A DNA stretch of 64,000 bases from Fimicolochytrium jonesii (GCF_025526975.1 NW_026515700.1:62001-126000); one strand, 5' to 3'. Counted from the first letter of the stretch, positions 7,782 through 19,100 are shown. Numbers and translations: made by a program. Notes: generated by a model not told the origin, from the sequence alone.

Positions 7782-9803
7782 TCACGGCTTCGATTGCCGC
7801 AGTCCCAATTGCTGTATGCTGTTTTGCATGTACGGAGGCAAAGGCGCCGTCACTTTTAAGTCCGCATGTGGTCCATACCAGTCCTGTAATCATAATCAAG
7901 ACGTTGAGTACTCGACACGACGATGAGACCCGTCAAAAGGGCACCTGTTGAAAGAACCGAGCACTTGCCTTCAACACTATGGTATGCATGTGTAAATGCA
8001 GCGGGACATGCTTGCGTTGAACCCAATCGCCCTGTGGGACGAATGCGCCTGTCAGCTCACAAGACAGGCGGGATGTTCCAGAACATCATAGATCGTGTGA
8101 GTCCAGTTTCTACCTGTAACCGGTGTATAGCACCTTTGCCATACTTCGGGTCCCCGAGAACGGGCGCTGAGGAGAACGCAGATGAGCCACCAACCACGCA
8201 GGGCCCATTAGCGGTGGCCGCGAGAGAGCTTACCATTAAGATGCTCAGCACAGTGCACACGCAGTTGATGTTTCCGTCCCGTGAGAGGCCTGAGCTCAAG
8301 GAGCGATGCCTACATAATTATGCATGAGACTAATGATCTTCTTAGACTAAAGTGGAATGGATGGCTGGACCTACTTTCTTCCCCGAAACAAGCACTCTGT
8401 AGTCGGTGACGGCCTTCTTGATCTCAGGGTCATCTTGCTCTTCGTCTTGCTTGTCTATAAGATTCAAATGTATAAGATTCAACGTTTTGTGCTTCCTTCC
8501 CGATGAACACGACCAAACGTACACCACTCCACGATAGTCATCCTCTCCTGCCCGTTCTTCCCTACACTCGCAATACCCGTGGTGATTCGGCCCTCCTCTG
8601 GTATCGGCGACTTCCCGCTGTCCCACCCAGCCTGTCGCACATCCCCATATTCATCCTTTGGGACAGGAAGGACCACTACGGCTTGATAGAACTTGGTCAC
8701 ACTCTCATGACGGTCTCTGAACAACTTGCTTATCCTCGCGGCGCACTCCCGTGTTCGGGCAAGGAGGAGGACGCCGGTGGTATCCCTGTCGAGACGGTGG
8801 ACCAAGCGAGGTGGTTCAGCGGCGTCAAATTGGAGGCCTGTGGAACGCAGTGGTGAGCCACATGAAAACGGCACAATCTCTCGCGGCGAGCTGCGGAACG
8901 TACCGCCCAGAAGCTTCTCTATATGCATTGAGGTTTTCGATCCGCCTTGTACGGCCAGGCCAGCTGGCTTGTTGATCAGCAGGACATCGTTGTCTCTGTA
9001 AAGCACGCTGCGTGGGCATCAGGATCCAAAGCACTCGTCCCGATGCCGTCACAGGATGCTAGAGTACTCACCATGCTCTCAGTTTCTGAATCTCGGCCTG
9101 ACGGTAAAACCAATCTTCATTCAGCCACGCCTACACCAGCTGATACACCCACATGCTCGCCCACCTCTATCGCATCCTCAACGCTCTGCTTTTCCTCCGC
9201 GGTCATATCCTCGGGTGCTTTCTTTTTTCTGCCCATAACAACAACCACTACATCCCCTGCATGCACGATCCCCTGAGGTTTGATATCGACGAACCGTGCA
9301 TGCGTGCTGCCCTGTACCGATACCTCCCCGTTCAAAATCTTCAGCCGAGCGACGTTCCTCCGAATTCCCAGCCGGTTCTCCAAGAACGCGTCCAGTCGTG
9401 TGAGATGCTCTTCAAAGGACACCGGTAGATATTTTGAATTTAGCGTGGGTTCCGCAAGGTCGGAGGGAGTGGTGCTGGTGCTGCTAGAGGTTGGTTGGGC
9501 TTTGGAATTTGAACGACCTTTCGTCCCACCACTGCTGCCGATTCCCACTGCTTTCGTGAGCCGCAATGCGGTCGACTTTGACATGGAAGTTGGTTTTTTG
9601 AGTTCCGGCCGCAGTTGCCGTGATGTATCCACCGATACCTGCCTACGAGCCCCAGGAGAGGAGGAGGTGCTAGGTTTCGCTGCTCGTGTGTACTTTGTTC
9701 GCACACGGAAACCGCAAATGCTCGCCGTGCCGCTGTTGACGGGTAACCGCCCGAAGCAGGCGATGGCCTCGCTGCCGCATAGTGAGAGCCCTTTGACGAA
9801 CAT
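7782..9803 (-). CDS. RluA-family RNA pseudouridine synthase, probably mitochondrial (multi-exon)
   Basis: Motifs LLINKPAGLAVQGG, PRLVHRLDRDTTGVLLLA (catalytic Asp), KKAVTDYRVL, PVLGDPKYG, PLHLH, VTAPLPPYM. Basic N-terminal extension. Confidence 0.9.
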
Positions 9804-10242
9804 GGTGGAGTGAAGATCGTCGAGGCAAAGACCACAGAAATGTAAGGATGGCGTCAATGTCGCAAACGAGGCTTTTTTCGAAGGGCAAACAGGGCAAACC
9901 AGGATGCACGCGCGAAGGCTGCGCATGCGCTTTCTCGGACGCGACATCTCTTGAGGAAGGGAAAACGATCCACACACAAAGGAAGCAGGAAAAGCACATA
10001 TGTTTGGCAAGCACGGATTTCGGTGAGGTTTCTTGTGTTTTCATGCGAAGTCAAGTAATATACAATGTAGGACAATTAAAGTTGAAACCCTCGTCCGAGT
10101 TTCTCCAAAACTGGTTGCGGTTCATGATTATGTTCTACGTAAAGGTATCCCCCATCTACAAATGTACGCTCGTAGTCCACCCCAGGGAGCTTTCATCACG
10201 ATTGTCCCTCCCGTTCCGTCCAAAATTGAGTGTCCTCTATCG

Positions 10243-12552
10243 TCAAAGTGTTGCCACAAGGCTGCTTGCGAAAGCGTTAGCCAGCGCCGCATGTGATGCA
10301 TCCGTATTGTGGTTTGCGAAAACAAGATCATCTGAATGACGGTTGCTGTTGGTCGCATTGTGAAAGTCGTGGGGCACACTGAACAGAAGCTCGTCCGGAT
10401 GGGCATGTGTCGAGTGCTGATCGTCGTGGTGCGTAGTCGATGGATAGACGAGATCGCCTGCGTGGCGGCTTGATATCAGACCCATCCCCATATCCAGCTC
10501 GTATGACATATTATGGTATTTGTTTGTTTGTGGGTCTCCAAACCCCAAGCCCATTTGCAGACCCGCGAAAGCAGCCGCATTAGCGGCAGATTGCTGCGTG
10601 GTGACCCCCGTGACTTCATGTGCCATGGAATGGTGGTCGTGCACAGCGAGGTGACCGTCGGCGCCTGTCATGGCAAACTGGTTGTTTACAAAGTTCTGGA
10701 GGAAGCCGTTGAATTGCTGGTCGGAATCGCTTTCGGAAGACTCGCATACGCCTTCGGGTCCCACGTTCATCAGCCGTGTGAGCTCGTCGACGGGCGATGC
10801 CGATGTTTGTGAACCGAGGAAGGAGGCTGTGGGGATTTCTGGTGTACATGGGGCACTTGGAGCTTCGGTGGCTGGCTCATCGACGAGCAGATCGCGCAAG
10901 ATGTTGTCTTTGGTGTCTTTGCCTTTAAATGGCCAAGAATTCCATCCGGGAATGTTGCCGAAGTCGAGGAATTGAGTGCAAAAGAGGTCGGCATTTGGTC
11001 CCCTATGAGAAAAAGTGCGACGTCAGTTTGTGTGAATGTCACCATCCGTTGGGGTAGTCCCTCGTAACTTACAGGTAGACAAGTACGTGGCTTTCATCCT
11101 GTACACACTTCTCCCGTCCAGTAGGTGTTGAGAAGCAAAGCTTGTTGAAAAAGAAGCAGTGCGGGTACTGCAGCACCTTCTGAAACCACGCGGTCCCAAA
11201 ATCCACCTTCAGCAGCACCATCGCCGACGAAATCTCTCCCAAGCGATACTTCTGCTCCGCCGCGCAGAACCAGCGACTTTGCTGACTGGTCCCGTCGGTG
11301 TCGTGCCCGACGGGCGGCGACAACCAGACATCGCCGGTCCATGGTTGGAGGAGGCCGTCGGCGTTTTCGTCAAAGAACTGCCGAGCGATCTTGTGCTCGT
11401 GGATCTTGTCATTGGCGAACTCGCAGGACGCGGGGTCCAGGTCGAAGACCACCTTGTTGATCACTTGCTTGGCTGCCGTTATAATGTCTTTTGGGGTGTA
11501 CAGTTCATTGTTGAGGTCCGAGAACGAGATTCCGGTTTCTGAGAGCAATCGAATGAGAATCGCTCATGGCGTTGATACGTAGATAAGACCCTCGATGACC
11601 GGATTTCCTGAGACGTACCATATTTGACAGTCATGGCAACAACGTGCTCCTCGGTAATAGTATGCCCCGATTCGCACACCCGTTTCCAGATGAACCGCCT
11701 CACATCGGCCGGGAACTTGTGCAAAGACCGAATGTGGGAGATGTTCACCGGCACGGGCAGGTTCGGATCCTCGACCAACGATTCGTAGACACTCCTGTGA
11801 ATTGGAAGCAGACGGAAGATGAGCACTATGACTCGCCGTCTGAGTGTTGGACAGGTGAAGGTGAACATACGCAGAGCACAGATAGGTGTTGGTGGTGCGA
11901 CGGCTGAATGAGAAGTTTTCTTTTGCGTATGTGTAAATGGTTTTGAAAACGGGCCCTGAACACAAACAATGCATCGAAATGAGTCCACGTATGCCGATGG
12001 AGACATAACTACGAGCCATGAACTCACCATAAAGCTTCTCCTCATCAATCTGTCTCAACGCAGCAGCTACGACAAAAAAGTCTACATTTAACAAACCGTA
12101 ACCGACGATGAGAAAGAAATGGGGCGACGACGAAGAGACTCACCAACTAAGAAGAACTTGCCAGTTCCCAGATGCTCCCTGATAACCGCCTCCAAGTTCT
12201 TCAACCGCTTCGCCGCAATCTCCGTCTCGCCCTCCGTAGCCTGTGCCGGCTTCCGATGACTGACGGGCTGACGTGGGCGGCGGGCCTTGCGCTGCAGGCT
12301 TGTTAGCGGCTGCGTGCCTGGAGCAGCGACGTTGACGTTGGGGGAAGCAGCGACGGTAGCGGTCGCGGTCTGACGAGGCCGCTTGTAGGGGTGATGAAAC
12401 TGGCGTCTGTGCTCGCCCTCGGCCGCGGGCGCCGCTGAACGAGACGGAGCGATGGGTGAAGGCTGCAGAGGCTGGAGTGGGAAGTCGTCCGTGGTGTAGG
12501 TGAAAGCATCCTCCGTGTCGAAACCGGCGAGTTGAACTGGCCCGGAAATCAT
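10243..12552 (-). CDS. ParB-like HTH domain fused to phage Dam-like DNA N6-adenine methyltransferase domain (6 exons)
   Basis: Spliced protein: LKNLEAVIREHL...AALRQIDEEKLYG...YTYAKENFSFSRRTTNTYLCSA...PVNISHIRSL (HTH), then ELYTPKDII...FDLDPASCEFAN...DGLLQPWTGDVWLSPPVG...SAMVLLKVDFGTAWFQ...HVLVYLGPNADLFCTQF (Dam fold). Confidence 0.85.
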
Positions 12553-13830
12553 GTTTTCTCGTTTGGGGTTGGGGGTGCCGTTGAAAGCGTGGGTCGATGC
12601 GGAAGGCTCGGTCGGGCTCACCGGTTTGTGTGAGATTCTTGGTGTTCCGAAGTAGAGGGGTGCTCTGGAAGTTGTGAGGGGCTAAGAGAGAAAATATCAG
12701 GAACAGGACGAGCCAAGAGGGAGGATTGCACCCGCCCGTATTTCTGGCCCGGATGGACAGGTTTCTGCCGACCATGAACTTCCTTTCCATACCGTTGTCA
12801 CACCACTTGCGGACTTGAACTGGATCAGGTAACAGCCAACGAAGAGATCGAAGCGACTGAAGTATATCTCCAAAGTAGATGAGAAGAACCACGAAAGCTA
12901 CTGGACAAACTCCAAACGGTAGAATGTGCAAGTTGAGTGCATCTCGATGTTGCTCGCAGAAGGGGATCGGGAATGGGGGGTTTTGAAAAAGTGTCAGTTG
13001 CATCACCTATGCGGAGTTTGCCATCACATAAGCACGCGTTTGCTTATGTAGCAAAGACAAACAAAAAGCCGCCCTTTTTCCGTTGACAGGGTTCGACAGC
13101 GAGTCGCCTGGACCCCGAAAAAATGTCACACCGCCCGAAAGACACCGCCCCAACCTTAGCATGTCAGCAGGCAATGGGCGAACGTTGGTCAGCATTTTCA
13201 GAGTGACCATACTTTTTCCATACTCAGATGACTCTGGTAATTTCTAGTCGATAATATCATAGCATGGCTAGCGTCGAAACGCCGTCCTACTTGGACATGG
13301 ATTCTTTATGGCGGTTTCATTAGGACTTGAGAACACCCACCCACCTCTGATAGAGCCGATGGTCAAACATTGTTGGCAGGACCGCCGGAAATGTCGCTTC
13401 GAACCTAGGATATGGTACTTACTATACACATCGCTCCGTTCACGAGCCTCTGCTCGTTTTTCATAAGGGGGTTTCGCCGGAAGAAGGTCTGGGCTAGCGC
13501 GGTGAACCGGGGTGCAACGCTCCGATGCCCAAGTAATGCCCCTCTGGATGCAGTGATTTAGGGGCAGCAGCCATGGATCAACAAACAAAAAGTTCAAGCG
13601 CCATTCCAGAGCGGGGCAGCCATTCGTCGTCTTGATGGATGTTCGAGTTTCGAAATTTTAAGTGATTCAGGAAGAAGTTCTATATGTATATGGATGCGCG
13701 TCTATATGATTGGGGGACTACACGATAGATAGAAAGGCTGGATGTATCCAGACTGAGAGTGTCCAAAAAAAAAGGGTCCGTAAAATAAGGATTAATGCGA
13801 GATAGGGACGGCAGCCACAAGCTGTGTCGC

Positions 13831-15492
13831 TCATAGAGCGAGATATTCGTCCCACACCGATTCCATGTAGTTGAGACGCGTGATGGCGTAGTCTAGGTAG
13901 TCGAAGTCGAGGTCGCTGATTTCTGCTTGGACGAGGGCCCAACTATAAAAGAAAAGGTCGTTAGAAACGCCGAAGCGTAGGGAGTAGAAGGAAACGCAGA
14001 TTTACGTACATCGCCCAAAAGAAGTGAGCCGCCAGCGAGAACTTGGTGACTTCCTTGTAGAGATTCTCAACCTCAGCGTCCATGACGGCACGCTTTGTGT
14101 AGGATTCAAGGTATGTTCGGAGCCAGGGGAGTTGAGCGGGTTTCGTCGGGTAGAGCTCCCATTTGCAATCGAAACCTATTGTTGTGCGCGAAGTTGGGTG
14201 GTGAGATCGGAGCAGTGATTCTGGTAGAGCCGCGTGATGGGCTGCCTACCTGCATACTCGCAGAAATGGTTCCCGATGTCGAAGCCTCTGTACGATATCG
14301 AGCCGTATTCGTAATCGATGAAGGAGACGGTATCTACAAAACCAAGTCACACCAGGTCAACGCCAATACGGTACGCCACTCGTTAAAAACCGCGTACCCT
14401 TAGCTTCGCTATAGACGATGTTGCCAGAAAGCAAGTCATTGTGACAAAAAGTAACCGGACTACCCAGGGCCTGAAGGGCACTCTGCAAGTCTAGCAATCT
14501 CTGCCTCAACTTATCTACACTCAGATTGGCTCTGAACTTGGCGTCTGCCGCCTTATTGGTGTACGATTTTGGAACTGCGCGGCAAGACATGTCAGTTTCC
14601 AACGTCGCCACGATCGGTTCAAAGGTTGACTGGACAATACCTTGGACCAGCCAGCGGAACATGGTGGGAAACAGCTGTGGTTCGAGTGTGGACCCTGGGA
14701 GAGCTACGCCATGCCATTCTGCTAACCGTTTGGCCACGAGTATGGACTTGTGCGCATCACTCATGTCTATAAGAAGACCCAGCATGTTGGAAGCGTCGTC
14801 AGAGGTGTCCAAGAGTGATATTCCACTGTACTGTCGTCATACCTTCGCCAGAAAAGGGAGTTCCAGCTATGAACCCATACACTAGGCCGTTATCGAATCT
14901 CCCGTATAGTGGAGGACATAAACCCAGTTTCGATAATGCTTGCATGTTCTGATGTAGGGAAAGATCACGCCATCAGAACTGATGTCTTCTCAAGGCCGGG
15001 TTTCTAGACACTCTTCCTCGCACATACCACCAACTCCTGGTTCCGATCTATGAGGATATCGGACCCTTTTCCGTACGTCCGCACCAGTACTGCGTGCCCT
15101 GAAGGCTTGTGAGTGGCGCGAAACAATTTGTTCGTGATGCCAGCTGTAAACTGCTTCAAGACAACATCCTCCTTCACATTCCAGGTTGGGAAGAAATGCG
15201 CACAACTACGGCCGAGACCCCTGCCTGAGTGCATAGAGGAGTATGAGGGGGGGATCAATATGCTACTTGGAAGGGAAGACATGCAACTTACGGTAAGCTT
15301 GTCGTGATCGATTGTGTACTTGAAGGTCGCAATGGACTTCAACACTGCCGCGGTGCTTTTCGCGGGCGCCGCTGAAGGTAGCTTTGTTCCATTTACCAAC
15401 CCCTGGAAGGTGGAAAGCAGCGTGTCGGACTCTGCGGCAGCAGCTGCTTCTGACATATTGTTGTAAACCGAGGTGACTTCACCGGAAAGCAT
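13831..15492 (-). CDS. Ethanolamine/choline kinase (multi-exon; start may be 15456)
   Basis: GITNKLF...VLVRTYGKGSDILIDRNQEL, Brenner motif FCHNDLLSGNIV, SFIDYEYG, FDIGNHFCEYAG, WALVQAEISDLDFDY. Confidence 0.92.
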
Positions 15493-16131
15493 GGTGGTGC
15501 AGGCAAGAGGATTTCCCACGGCGAACCGGATAGGAATGTGAGTTCGCGTCGGCGGGGCTTTTCTTGGCGAGATCGACTTGTGTGTTCCCTCTCAGAGAAT
15601 GTACAGTAAGTACCCGTTCTAGGTAACTTTTCACCACTGGGTTGCTTCGAAGTTTCGATTTCGTCGCTGCTCTTGGCGAGGGTAATTGCCAATTGGAGCT
15701 TAGTCAAGCCGGTTGGACCCTTGCCTGGAATGGAACTCGAGGCCGCTTGCCTGTTGCTCCCACAACATTTGAGCACACCCACGAACCGGCCCCATGTGAA
15801 TCCAAAAAGGAATCAAACTTTCAACAAATCTTTTGATGATGGTAACCACCGGTTTCAAGTTCTCAGACAAGAACCGGCGGTAAAAGCGTTTCCAGTTCCC
15901 AGGAGGCGGGGCCCGGGAGAAGCCGGAGTGGATGGGCGCTGATGTCACCGACGCGTTCTAACTTCTCTCATTCACTTTCACTTCCATGTCTGCACAAATC
16001 GGACAAGAAGCTCAACAAGTTCGGGCTCTTGTCCACGCCCGCATCGGATGGAGCCATTAGCTTGGGGAGTTGTCCCTTTGAATATCACTTCATTCTCACC
16101 TAGCTCTCAGAAGGCTTTTTAGATTCCAAAA

Positions 16132-19100
16132 ATGCCGCCGATTTTGGATCTCACGCTTCGGAAATGGCGAGTTCGGAATGCGGACGGAAAGATTGACATC
16201 CCAGCAAACGTGCCAGGTATGGGTTATCATGGAAACGGCACTTATTGAGGTTGAGCTTTGTTCCGACCCCTTTCAAGGAGAAATCCACACGGATTTGATG
16301 CGAAGCGGGCACATCCAGGGCGATCCATATCATCGAGATGCATACCAAACGTGGGTGTCCTTCGACTTTGACGGTGCCATTGAAAGGTTCAGAGGCATAC
16401 CGTTTTTCTTTGATAGGCTTCGCTGGATTGGCATGGAGGACTGGACATATTCCACAGACTTCCCCAGCAACCTCTCTTCTCAACATATTTATCTCGTCTT
16501 CGATGGGCTTGACACCATCGCCACCATCTCGCTGAATGGGAAAGTAGTTGGCAAAACGGAGAACCAATTTCGGAGGTTCATATTTGACATTCGGAGGTTG
16601 ATCCTCGAAGATGCGGGCGCCATCAATACTTTATCGGTGACCTTTGCGAGTGCTGCGAAAACTGCTGTCAGTCCGATGTTTGCAAAAGCACACCAAATCA
16701 CTTCTGCTTCGACTCACCGGCATCATGACTTTGTTCCCAGACCACAACAGCAAAGGCGTACCCCTACCAAGGTTTGAATCCCCGAAGTCGGGCCGATTGT
16801 GATGCAGAATGCTTCATCTGATGACCGTTGCAGTACCGGACGGCTTTGACCCAACTCAGAATGGAGAGAGAAATCGCAACTTTGTCCGGAAAGAGCAATG
16901 TTCATTCGGCGTACGTTTCTGGGTCACAGTGGGGAAGAGAGGAATTTCTAGTGCTCATTTCGCTTCCGATCACTCGCTAGTGGGACTGGGGACCGTGCTT
17001 TCTGCCATGTGGTATATTCTATCGTGCAGTTTGACTACGAGATGATGCGCGAAAGCTCTTATCTCCTCCAATCAAGGAATCTGGAAGTCCGCAAAACTTG
17101 TATACCTCGATCAAACCGCGTTATGGATCACCGACGCGGCCGTAGACATTTTTCCGGCCGGAAAGGACTTTGGCATCAAAGTAGGCGGTACATACCATGA
17201 AAGGAAGAAGTGCGCATATTGAATTCGCCTCCAGGTGAAGGTGGATTACCGGACGGCCTTGAGCGGATCGACGATTGTCGTGGATGTGCATGTCGATGGA
17301 TTGGAGAACCTCGAACGTGTGGCGGAAACTCAGTATGGGCTTCGTTTTGCGAGAGGATGCGAGCATTTACCCAACAGTCGCGCTATTAGGGACGCGGATA
17401 CTGTCGAATTGCATTACAAGGTTCCGGCAAGCGCTGTAACTCTCTGGTAACACTTTGCCTGGAAGAAGATTGGGGAGTTTCGTGCACTTCCGCCATTAAC
17501 GACGTCGCGACAGGTGGCCAGCAGGGTACGGCGCCCAGAAACTGTACGACCTGCGCATCTCACTCAAATCCTCAAACGGCAACACCGAAGACGAAGTCCA
17601 CAAAAAGATCGGGTTCAGAACCGTAGAGCTGGTGCAACAGCCCTACCCCTCTCAAGAAGGCCTCAGTTTCTACTTCCGCATCAACTCTATCCCCATATTC
17701 TCCAAAGGCACAAACTGGATCCCCGCCGACGCCTTCGAATCCCGCGTAACAACCACCCTCCTCCGACGCCTCCTCCAGAGCTGCGTCGAAGCCAACATGA
17801 ACATGGTCCGAGTGTGGGGCGGGGGGATTTACCAGCAGGACGCGTTTTATGAGATCTGTGATGAGATGGGGTTGATGGTTTGGCAGGAGTTTATGTTTGC
17901 CTGTGCAATGTATCCGGTTGATAAGGCGTTTTTGGAGAATGTGAGGGAGGAAGCGGGGTATCAGGTCAGGAGGTTGATGGCGCATCCGTGTATTGTACTT
18001 TGGAGTGGGAATAATGGTACGTCCCTCCTTGACTTTCTGTCGTTAAGTTGATTGTGATAACTCACGCTGGCCGCAGAGAATGAGGAGGCGCTGATTACAG
18101 GGTGGTATGAACCGATCAAGAAAAACAAGTTTGTGTATACGGTAGGTTTAGCGCGTGACAACTATATGGGAGCAGTCCTAATGGACGCTGGGGAACAGAT
18201 CGATTATCACCGCCTGTACCACGAAACCATCATGCCGACCGTAAAGCAGATCGACCCGACACGCCCATTCATCTCCAGGTATCTCACTACCCGTCGCATA
18301 CATCAAACCTTCACATCAATCTGACATTGATCATCCGCACAAAGTTCTCCATACAACGGAATCATCTCAGAAGACCCCTTCACAGAACGCTTCCTAGCCG
18401 ACAACGGCAACCCCGACGCATTCGGTGACGTCCATTACTACAATTACAAGGACGACGGCACCGATGTGAGTCGGATGCGGAAGCCGCGGTTTGCTTCAGG
18501 TGCGTAGCGTCGTCCTAAGCTGTGCCGCGAGGAAATGATCACTGACGTTGGTAATGCGCACAGAGTATGGATTTCAAGCCCTTCCGTCGTTCGCTACATT
18601 TCGGAAAGTGACGACCGAGGCCGACTGGCACCCGTTGTCGCCTTTGATGGTTTTGAGAAATCATCATCCGAAGGGACAGGAGGAGATTATCTTGCAGGTA
18701 TGTAGCCGTGATAGACGCCCATGGTAGGTTGGGCAAGCGCTGACATTTTGGCTTTTGTAGATGGATTACCACTTCAAACGCCCCTTCTCGGGCTCCGGCA
18801 CCTCCGTCTCCGTCCTCGAATTCGACCACTTCTGCTACCTCTCCCAATGCGTCCAAGTAAGTAACCGTTCCCCCCTCCCCTCACTCTCGAATGTCTCTTC
18901 ACTAATACTACCCACCTCCTCCCAAGGCAATCTGCATGAAAGCCCAAACAGAACACTACCGCCGCCTCACCAGTCTCCCCGCCAACTGCATGGGCGCCCT
19001 GTACTGGCAATGCAACGATATCTGGCAAGCCCCCACGTGGGCGGGGATCGAATATGGGGGGACGTGGAAGATGCTGCATTTTTTTGCCAAGGAGTTTTTC

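What the first reader, a model, noticed from the sequence alone, without database searches (positions are those of the whole stretch)
10243..12552. Domesticated phage-type Dam DNA methyltransferase fused to a ParB-like HTH, with catalytic motif SPPV
Seen: six exons splice into an HTH module followed by a complete phage-Dam-like domain (YTP, DLDPAS, DGL.Q.W.G.VW, AWFQ, LVYLG) flanked by disordered tails resembling a transcription factor. Motif IV reads SPPV. Established: N6A methyltransferases use [DN]PP[YF], N4C enzymes often use SPPY, and the aromatic residue stacks the flipped base. Early-diverging fungi can carry abundant 6mA, usually attributed to MT-A70 enzymes. From memory, a Dam-like clade with ParB-HTH fusion has been noted computationally in chytrids and chlorophytes. 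Inference: an anciently acquired prokaryotic/phage gene that is now either a second, non-MT-A70 methylation writer or a catalytically altered DNA-binding/6mA reader. I know of no functional characterisation.
Basis: partly seen in the sequence, partly recalled or inferred. Interest (0 to 1): 0.8.

Follow-up and report, generated by a model that had tools for sequence, protein, structure and literature searches.

The report
Disarmed phage methylase kept by chytrids
This six-exon chytrid fungal gene joins a bacterial ParB-type helical domain to a phage-type DNA adenine methyltransferase fold whose base-stacking catalytic residue varies freely across related fungi, so it likely works as a conserved DNA-binding regulator rather than as a DNA-methylating enzyme.

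Summary
It is an orthologue of Batrachochytrium BATDEDRAFT_85509, which Iyer et al. already filed as ParB-HTH plus chlorophyte-type Dam, so the family is known by computation.

Added here: the fungal members form one supported clade that keeps the fold and the DLDP motif but has lost the catalytic signature. Canonical [DNSH]PP[YFW] occurs in 1 of 40 fungal-clade sequences against 107 of 121 other homologues, and the fourth position shows 15 different residues. Constraint has moved to the helical domain, which is better conserved than the methylase in 276 of 276 fungal pairs against 342 of 1485 other pairs, with an invariant RRTTNTY helix. The gene occurs in fungi with 1.84% and with 0.13% 6mA, so it is not the bulk writer.

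Best reading (0.6): a domesticated pseudo-methyltransferase that binds DNA. No binding, activity or F. jonesii transcript is shown. The scan noted a similar chytrid gene before on other DNA (e1-7220109).

The parts
10243..12552 (-). Whole gene, ATG to stop, 6 exons, 644 aa (identical to database protein EV422DRAFT_544051)
12144..12552 (-). Exon 1 (aa 1-136): disordered N-tail with basic clusters and first helices of the ParB-like domain
12028..12066 (-). Exon 2 (39 nt, aa 137-149)
   Evidence: following intron site shared with locus L003
11871..11955 (-). Exon 3 (aa 150-178), holds the helix-turn-helix
11619..11794 (-). Exon 4 (aa 178-236), rest of the helical domain
11073..11538 (-). Exon 5 (aa 237-392), most of the Dam-like fold
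10243..11002 (-). Exon 6 (aa 392-644): last helix and G-x-I-P-G-x-N-S-W motif of the domain, then acidic disordered tail and stop
11620..12231 (-). ParB/Raf1-like helical domain, aa 108-236 (spliced across introns 1-3)
   Evidence: median 76% identity in 25 orthologues
11879..11902 (-). RRTTNTYL, predicted recognition helix (aa 168-175); RRTTNTY in 24 of 24 fungal-clade proteins with both domains
10933..11527 (-). Phage/chlorophyte-type Dam-like Rossmann domain, aa 241-415 (split by intron 5)
11426..11443 (-). DLDPAS, strand-1 motif, likely cofactor-binding; D271 and P272 kept in 39 of 39 fungal rows
11309..11320 (-). SPPV, degenerate motif IV (NPP[YF] in non-fungal homologues)
11108..11128 (-). 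TPTGREK hairpin (aa 374-380), conserved in the fungal clade and variable in other homologues
10246..10920 (-). Acidic disordered C-tail, aa 420-644 (7 K/R, 29 D/E), not conserved between species

Best explanation
The gene encodes a phage-type ParB-helix plus Dam fusion that zoosporic fungi have kept as an ordinary intron-containing gene, and its product likely works as a sequence-specific DNA-binding regulator whose methyltransferase half is likely no longer catalytic. Steps: (1, shown by sequence and tree) an ancestor carried the ready-made two-domain gene, and its fungal descendants form one clade. (2, shown) In that clade motif IV lost its Asn and its aromatic residue, three further positions conserved in NPP-type homologues changed, and the fold and DLDP motif stayed. 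(3, shown) The helical domain became the most constrained part, with a fixed RRTTNTY helix. (4, inferred from fold) That helix reads one fixed DNA site, as ParB, Noc and KorB read theirs. (5, inferred) The dead methylase domain stays as a structural, DNA-contacting or partner-binding module, possibly still binding SAM, using new conserved surfaces such as TPTGREK. (6, inferred) Basic N-tail clusters carry it to the nucleus, and the acidic disordered tail recruits transcription or chromatin machinery.
For: Canonical [DNSH]PP[YFW] in 1 of 40 fungal-clade rows against 107 of 121 others; aromatic at position 4 in 2 of 40 against 114 of 121; 15 residue types there, the 11th most variable of 157 columns. 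Position 1 is N in 121 of 121 others but S27/F6/H5/A1/N1 in fungi. W/Y before YTP in 1 of 37 against 114 of 119; K/R at 329 in 2 of 40 against 96 of 121; H/F at 385 in 0 of 36 against 74 of 120. The aromatic residue holds the flipped base (PMC4738411 Box 1; PMC10406627 passage), and its loss killed HP0593 and weakened M.TaqI (PMC3036652 passages). HTH better conserved than MTase in 25 of 25 orthologues, median 76% against 57%, and in 276 of 276 fungal pairs against 342 of 1485 non-fungal pairs; at matched MTase identity 178 of 178 against 41 of 378. The top 10 fold matches of an orthologue's isolated helical domain are all Raf1 or ParB-family DNA-binding domains. The same domain occurs without any methylase, fused to a PWWP-like domain, in two Rhizophlyctis proteins. 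Gene present at 6mA levels from 0.13% to 1.84%. Fungal clade support 100/98.
Against: No biochemical data. The likely cofactor motifs are as conserved as in NPP-type homologues (D271, P272, Y250, G298, W303, G305, both prolines of motif IV all invariant), which an active enzyme would also show. Three fungal-clade sequences do carry an aromatic at position 4: SPPY in Chytridium lagenaria, SPPF in locus L003, FPPF in Paraphysoderma. A basic residue lost at 329 may be replaced by K/R at 333 (38 of 40). The best fold match of the helical domain is Raf1, a Rubisco chaperone (Z 9.8, rmsd 2.9, 98 aligned), above ParB and KorB (Z 7.5); these Z values are modest for helical domains and Foldseek E-values were 0.3 or worse. 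The pair counts are not independent, and the non-fungal set is only the top of one hit list. Basic clusters were found in 15 of 26 orthologues with no shuffle control.
Confidence: 0.6

Rival explanations
1. It is still an active but atypical amino-methyltransferase that the HTH targets to few sites (6mA or 4mC in DNA, or another substrate), and it tolerates a free fourth residue in motif IV.
For: Complete Rossmann fold at high confidence, matching PCIF1 (Z 9.9), M.TaqI (8.6) and EcoDam (8.4). DLDP, [DN]G, W-x-G and PP kept. S fits the general [DNSH]PP pattern. SPPY and SPPF occur in two members. M.TaqI Y108A/G was reduced, not dead (as cited there). A rare-site writer would not show in bulk 6mA percentages.
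Against: Position 4 takes G, E, K, S, N, Q, T, C, A and others and position 1 takes F, H and A, with losses at three more sites. The aromatic-bearing members sit nested among non-aromatic ones. In Spizellomyces and other AMT1-bearing species 6mA is mainly symmetric ApT (PMC12695648 section 7).
Confidence: 0.2
2. The helical domain has become a protein-binding module, as in Raf1, and the protein is a scaffold or chaperone, or an inactive partner of another methyltransferase in the way METTL14 partners METTL3.
For: Raf1 is the top structural match in both wide searches. Inactive MTase partners are known (METTL14; Mta9 in PMC11258239 passage).
Against: The invariant RRTTNTY helix is basic and polar; domain charge is 18 K/R against 13 D/E. 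Six of the top ten fold matches are DNA-binding ParB-family domains. A PWWP-fused paralogue points to chromatin. The gene persists in species with near-background 6mA.
Confidence: 0.1
3. It is a reader of methylated adenine: the former active site binds 6mA without transferring a methyl group.
For: F. jonesii has 1.84% 6mA; the domain descends from 6mA enzymes and keeps the PP turn.
Against: The residue that would stack the base is the one set free. The gene is equally well kept in Polychytrium (0.13% 6mA; HTH 80%, MTase 64% identical to P0001).
Confidence: 0.07
4. It is a mobile-element gene or a decaying relic with no host function.
For: Iyer et al. thought the family behaves like a mobile element because of its expansion in Volvox. 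One of the nearest intact relatives sits inside a Ty3/Gypsy polyprotein.
Against: One hit per named assembly, except two B. salamandrivorans entries and two identical Boothiomyces entries. Shared intron sites. Core identity 41-88% while tails fall to 10-27%. Housekeeping neighbours and no terminal repeats.
Confidence: 0.03

Closest known systems
'Chlorophyte-type Dam' clade, family 2 (ParB-HTH + N6-MTase) of Iyer, Zhang and Aravind, PMC4738411; listed member BATDEDRAFT_85509
   Same: Same two-domain architecture; P0001 is 68% (HTH) and 57% (MTase) identical to BATDEDRAFT_85509; xTP, DP and [DN]G features present.
   Different: The paper defines the clade by NPP[F/Y] and a basic residue before strand 5, which the fungal branch lacks; it knew one chytrid species and suspected a mobile element. 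Here the gene is found across Chytridiomycota, Neocallimastigomycota and Paraphysoderma with shared introns. In the parts I read the paper does not call the chytrid protein inactive, though its alignment shows SPPS.
Phage/prophage Dam family PF05869 / PHROG_111, including HTH- or DUF3102-fused forms
   Same: Same fold and motif order; about 33% identity to Vibrio phage N6-adenine methyltransferases over the domain; nearest Atlas clusters are 287-296 aa Dam proteins, 89-94% viral among the few members with taxa.
   Different: The homologues keep NPP[YF]; their HTH varies more than their MTase, the reverse of the fungal pattern; score of P0001 is under Pfam's cut-off.
ParB / Spo0J / Noc / KorB / SopB DNA-binding domains and the Raf1 N-terminal domain
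   Same: Whole-domain structural match (Z 6.5-9.8, rmsd 2.4-3.3, 85-98 of 106 residues).
   Different: No ParB N-terminal (CTP-binding) domain was detected by Pfam; identity only 8-15%; binding untested.
Inactive methyltransferase partners (METTL14/Kar4; DIRS1 MTase domains; DNMT3L)
   Same: Retained fold with a disrupted catalytic motif.
   Different: Unrelated by descent; no catalytic partner is identified here; this protein has its own DNA-binding-type domain.
AMT1/Mta1 (MT-A70) and MetB (PF02384), the characterised fungal 6mA writers
   Same: Same organisms in part; MetB is also an ancient bacterial acquisition.
   Different: Different families; these explain symmetric and asymmetric 6mA in Mucorales, and AMT1 tracks ApT 6mA across eukaryotes.

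Membership tests
Chlorophyte-type Dam, ParB-HTH family (Iyer et al.) | N-terminal ParB-type HTH fused to the MTase | tested here: met
   orthologue listed as ParB-HTH+N6-MTase
Chlorophyte-type Dam, ParB-HTH family (Iyer et al.) | xTP motif before the first helix | tested here: met
   YTP aa 250-252; the W before it is replaced by L
Chlorophyte-type Dam, ParB-HTH family (Iyer et al.) | DP motif in strand 1 | tested here: met
   DLDPAS; D271, P272 in 39 of 39
Chlorophyte-type Dam, ParB-HTH family (Iyer et al.) | T/D at the end of strand 2 | tested here: met
   D293; D22, T9, N6 among 40 rows
Chlorophyte-type Dam, ParB-HTH family (Iyer et al.) | [D/N]G before strand 4 | tested here: met
   D297-G298; 40 of 40
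Chlorophyte-type Dam, ParB-HTH family (Iyer et al.) | NPP[F/Y] in strand 4 | tested here: not met
   SPPV; NPP[FY] in none of 40 fungal rows. The paper's own listed chytrid member also fails it (SPPS), so descent holds but the catalytic definition does not
Chlorophyte-type Dam, ParB-HTH family (Iyer et al.) | [quoted passage not shown] | tested here: inconclusive
   A329; K/R in 2 of 40 against 96 of 121, but K/R at 333 in 38 of 40; my choice of column 329 as the paper's residue is an inference
Active N6A/N4C amino-methyltransferases | [DNSH]PP[YFW] motif IV | tested here: not met
   SPPV; 1 of 40 fungal rows, plus L003
Active N6A/N4C amino-methyltransferases | Rossmann MTase fold | tested here: met
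Active N6A/N4C amino-methyltransferases | SAM binding and methyl transfer | not testable with these tools
Pfam Dam PF05869 | Score at or above the curated cut-off 28.1 | tested here: not met
   24.3 bits, E 2.8e-5
ParB-family DNA-binding domain | HTH-containing helical fold | tested here: met
   ParB 6s6h Z 7.5, KorB 7.5, SopB 7.3, Spo0J 6.5 on orthologue P0037; Raf1 higher at 9.8; Spo0J Z 8.8 on P0001
ParB-family DNA-binding domain | Sequence-specific DNA binding, dimer on a palindrome | not testable with these tools
   no binding data
Transposon-borne DAM (DIRS / DAM-LTR) | RT, integrase or recombinase in or beside the gene; many copies | tested here: not met
   none in P0001 or in 7 neighbouring ORFs scanned; no terminal repeats in 8000-15000; whole genome not held, so copy number rests on database hits

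The most novel reading that the evidence does not exclude
Zoosporic fungi turned a mobile, phage-type methylase fusion into a new class of essential sequence-specific transcription or chromatin factor: the ParB helix was frozen on one DNA site, the methylase was disarmed into a SAM-sensing or partner-binding module, and the helix was later reused with a PWWP chromatin reader. The near relative inside a Ty3/Gypsy polyprotein would mark a retroelement route into fungi, separate from the DIRS-derived DAM-LTRs.
Probability: 0.25. Interest if true: 0.75.

Novelty: new variant of a known kind. Interest (0 to 1): 0.5.

Why it matters
If right, it corrects the inventory of candidate 6mA writers in early-diverging fungi: this protein is annotated as a Dam methyltransferase but is likely a pseudoenzyme. 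It also gives chytrid cell biologists a highly conserved DNA-binding factor of prokaryotic origin, found here only in zoosporic fungi among named fungal hits, whose target site can be found by one DAP-seq or ChIP experiment in Spizellomyces. It is a clear case of constraint moving from the enzyme to the targeting domain during domestication. It does not open a new enzyme class, and the family has been in print since PMC4738411.

Tried and rejected
No whole genome is held, so copy number and AMT1 presence in this genome were not tested. No RNA holder was listed; this is not evidence either way. A PDB sequence search with the fungal profile gave only a polyQ artefact. No related locus in viral contigs for the fungal profile or for P0039, and none in metagenome contigs for the intact sister P0164, so its context is unknown. 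No phage record covers 80% of the two-domain query; the two phage regions opened hold stand-alone MTases. The fused phage form rests on Atlas clusters and unnamed proteins. Homodimer prediction with SAM was not available, so there is no verdict on dimers or cofactor fit. Two wrong exon boundary sets were corrected (then 18). Repeats around the gene are short and look like chance. A 4mC-writer reading from 'SPP' was rejected because S is not fixed and Y is absent. Literature searches without a functional study of this gene: only PMC4738411 holds 'chlorophyte-type Dam'; no paper holds either gene id; one search was swamped by an unrelated term. The library lacks most subscription papers, and bioRxiv supplements are closed, so the species tables of the DAM preprint were not seen.

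Full report
1. Observation. Reading the minus strand gives six exons: 12552-12144, 12066-12028, 11955-11871, 11794-11619, 11538-11073 and 11002-10243. All five introns are GT..AG and 70-80 nt. The spliced frame encodes 644 aa and is identical to database protein P0001, named there as Fimicolochytrium jonesii EV422DRAFT_544051. The Dam assignment holds: PF05869 E 2.8e-5 though under the curated cut-off, PHROG_111 E 1.7e-13, and a confident two-domain model (aa 107-415 mostly pLDDT above 75, one dip near aa 241-250, tails under 50). Its C-terminal domain matches PCIF1 (Z 9.9, rmsd 3.3, 146 aligned), M.TaqI (8.6) and EcoDam (8.4). No RNA run was listed for this DNA. Indirect support for the splicing: 17 of 23 orthologue records I picked for this check stop at the residue before intron 5 without running past it (18 end there), while five run through it, among them a 553-aa protein on a 2173-nt Logan contig that covers both domains without a break, as a spliced transcript would (that it is RNA is my inference). 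Metagenome locus L003 shares introns 2, 4 and 5.

2. What it is. Searches returned 20 of 126 candidates and 36 of 7994. Named hits are Spizellomycetales, Rhizophydiales, Rhizophlyctidales, Chytridiales, Polychytrium, Cladochytrium and Blyttiomyces, the gut fungi Piromyces and Anaeromyces, and Paraphysoderma (order names recalled). No named hit came from Mucoromycota or Dikarya, but these searches depend on shared words. A profile search of 1.84 billion representatives found 7733 proteins at E up to 0.001, of which I saw the best 150. Iyer, Zhang and Aravind (PMC4738411; passages, section 5 part 1, supplement search and parts 31 and 33 read) describe this family: chlorophyte-type Dam, family 2, with an N-terminal ParB-type HTH, in chlorophytes and chytrids. 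They list BATDEDRAFT_85509, which is my P0016. The fusion is older than the fungi: 55 of 121 non-fungal homologues carry both domains, a profile of 20 of them aligns over both domains with probability 100, and the nearest Atlas clusters are mostly viral Dam proteins of 287-296 aa.

3. The catalytic motif. Of 187 stored proteins, 180 gave a usable MTase domain. I assigned 52 to the fungal group by score and name, and reduced both groups at 90% identity to 40 fungal and 121 other rows. Many rows in both groups are unnamed metagenome proteins; the fungal grouping was then checked by trees, from which three short rows were left out. Canonical [DNSH]PP[YFW] is in 1 of 40 against 107 of 121, and an aromatic fourth residue in 2 of 40 against 114 of 121. 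Fifteen residue types occur at that position in fungi, making it the 11th most variable of 157 columns, while both prolines beside it are invariant. The first position is N in 121 of 121 others and S27, F6, H5, A1, N1 in fungi. Also changed: W/Y249 (1 of 37 against 114 of 119), K/R329 (2 of 40 against 96 of 121) and H/F385 (0 of 36 against 74 of 120). Kept: Y250, D271, P272, N279, G298, W303, G305. Gained: TPTGREK at 374-380 and other fungal-only conserved sites. Against a clean loss: Chytridium lagenaria has SPPY, L003 has SPPF, Paraphysoderma FPPF, and K/R333 (38 of 40) could stand in for 329. In a tree built without the two motif columns, the 39 fungal rows form one clade (100/98). The aromatic-bearing rows sit inside it, C. 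lagenaria within a starred group with SPPH and SPPG, and five changes suffice for the trait (a quick 93-row tree agrees). The aromatic residue stacks the target base, and replacing it inactivated HP0593 and weakened M.TaqI (PMC3036652 passages). That the domain is dead is inference from these facts, not a measurement.

4. The helical domain. Against P0001, 25 of 25 orthologues are more identical in the HTH domain (median 76%) than in the MTase (57%); the tails fall to 24% and 14%. Over all pairs: 276 of 276 among 24 fungal proteins, against 342 of 1485 among 55 non-fungal ones; at 45-70% MTase identity, 178 of 178 against 41 of 378. Pairs are not independent, but the reversal is complete. RRTTNTY is present in 24 of 24 fungal proteins, whereas the 55 others all differ in that helix. 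A model of the isolated domain of an orthologue (P0037, pLDDT 95) has as its ten best matches Raf1 (Z 9.8, 8.7, 7.5, 7.2), KorB (7.5, 6.8), ParB (7.5), SopB (7.3, 7.0) and Spo0J (6.5), each over nearly the whole domain. Foldseek ranks the Noc DNA-binding domain first, at weak E-values. 'ParB-like' is thus fair, with the caveat that the best match, Raf1, binds protein. Two Rhizophlyctis proteins carry the same domain (51-53% identical) behind a PWWP-like domain (under Pfam's cut-off) and without a methylase, which shows the domain can work alone in a chromatin-type architecture.

5. Relation to 6mA. Lax et al. (PMC11258239; passages, sections 6 and 13, 60 of 61 rows of Supplementary Table 1) give values for eight species in which I found the gene. 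High: F. jonesii 1.84%, Anaeromyces 1.71, Piromyces 1.68, Powellomyces 1.43, Triparticalcar arcticum 1.04 (my hit is named Phlyctochytrium arcticum; the synonymy is recalled). Low: Cladochytrium replicatum 0.21 and Polychytrium 0.13. C. lagenaria, the one named species with SPPY, is 'ND', a label I did not see defined. Presence of the gene does not track bulk 6mA. Romero Charria et al. (PMC12695648; passages and section 7) tie ApT 6mA, including in Spizellomyces, to AMT1. A rare-site activity is not excluded by these numbers.

6. Context. The neighbours are a choline/ethanolamine kinase and an RNA pseudouridylate synthase, and none of 7 ORFs scanned is a transposon protein; no terminal repeats flank the gene. 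L003 has different housekeeping-type neighbours (my reading of the translations). This is a resident gene, not the mobile element that the supplement suspected from Volvox. The nearest rows with an intact NPPY are two unnamed metagenome proteins (P0041/P0164, P0063) and P0069, a Ty3/Gypsy-type Gag-Pol with a Dam domain between RNase H and integrase. Their grouping with the fungal clade has 92/83 support, short of starred, so no donor is claimed. A 2026 preprint (10.64898/2026.05.21.726589; parts 1-4 of 5 read) reports DAM-carrying LTR elements derived from DIRS, and its main text has no occurrence of 'chytrid', 'fung' or 'ParB'.

7. Verdict. Best explanation (0.6): a domesticated pseudo-methyltransferase acting as a sequence-specific DNA-binding factor. 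Rivals: atypical active enzyme 0.2, protein scaffold 0.1, 6mA reader 0.07, relic 0.03. It belongs by descent to a published family but fails that family's catalytic definition, so I file it as a new variant of a known kind. I found no functional study in the searches listed under Tried and rejected. That is unlike this gene and may be a paralogue, perhaps of the BATDEDRAFT_90358 kind; I had recorded my own reading before seeing it and do not count it as support. Other papers seen: PMC7862722 (passages, nothing relevant) and PMC10406627 (passages). Interest 0.5.

Noticed in passing
protein P0069 (unnamed ENA contig of 5497 nt), aa 1073-1191: Ty3/Gypsy-type Gag-protease-RT-RNase H-integrase polyprotein of 1712 aa with an in-frame phage/chlorophyte-type Dam domain (NPPY intact) between RNase H and integrase; groups near the fungal clade (92/83). 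May be a capture separate from the DIRS-derived DAM-LTRs of the 2026 preprint; single record, misassembly not excluded.
   Followed up: partly
proteins P0035 (KAJ3041361.1) and P0042 (KAJ3033230.1), Rhizophlyctis rosea: PWWP-like domain plus the same ParB-like helical domain, with no methyltransferase; only these 2 of 232 candidates were found.
   Followed up: partly
proteins P0164/P0041 and P0063 (unnamed JGI contigs of 1.6-3.2 kb): Apparently intron-free HTH+Dam proteins with intact NPPY that share the fungal clade's short insertion after motif I; closest intact relatives; genomic context not found.
   Followed up: partly
proteins P0043, P0057, P0064, P0097: A second, separate group with a degenerate motif IV (NPPG or NFPG), suggesting an independent loss of the aromatic residue.
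   Followed up: no
PMC4738411 supplement part 33: A second Batrachochytrium ParB-HTH protein, BATDEDRAFT_90358, much more divergent than this gene's orthologue; not recovered among my named hits.
   Followed up: no
L003:3259-4300: Orthologue with SPPF and very short introns (roughly 25-35 nt) in a compact AT-rich contig, beside genes that look like an N-acetyltransferase and a zinc-cluster factor.
   Followed up: partly
window 13964-15591 (-) and 8482-9018 (-): Flanking genes: choline/ethanolamine kinase (PF01633) upstream and RNA pseudouridylate synthase (PF00849) downstream; a glycosyl hydrolase family 2 gene near 17500-18048 (+).
   Followed up: no
window 1-64000: TAT and ATA trinucleotides are under-represented (0.71 and 0.74 of expectation), but TA itself is at 0.61, so this does not single out 6mA-linked TAT depletion.
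   Followed up: no
model of P0037 and P0001 aa 114-240: The Rubisco chaperone Raf1 N-terminal domain is the closest solved fold to this phage/cyanobacterial-type ParB-like domain; no paper in the library holds all four search terms linking them.
   Followed up: no
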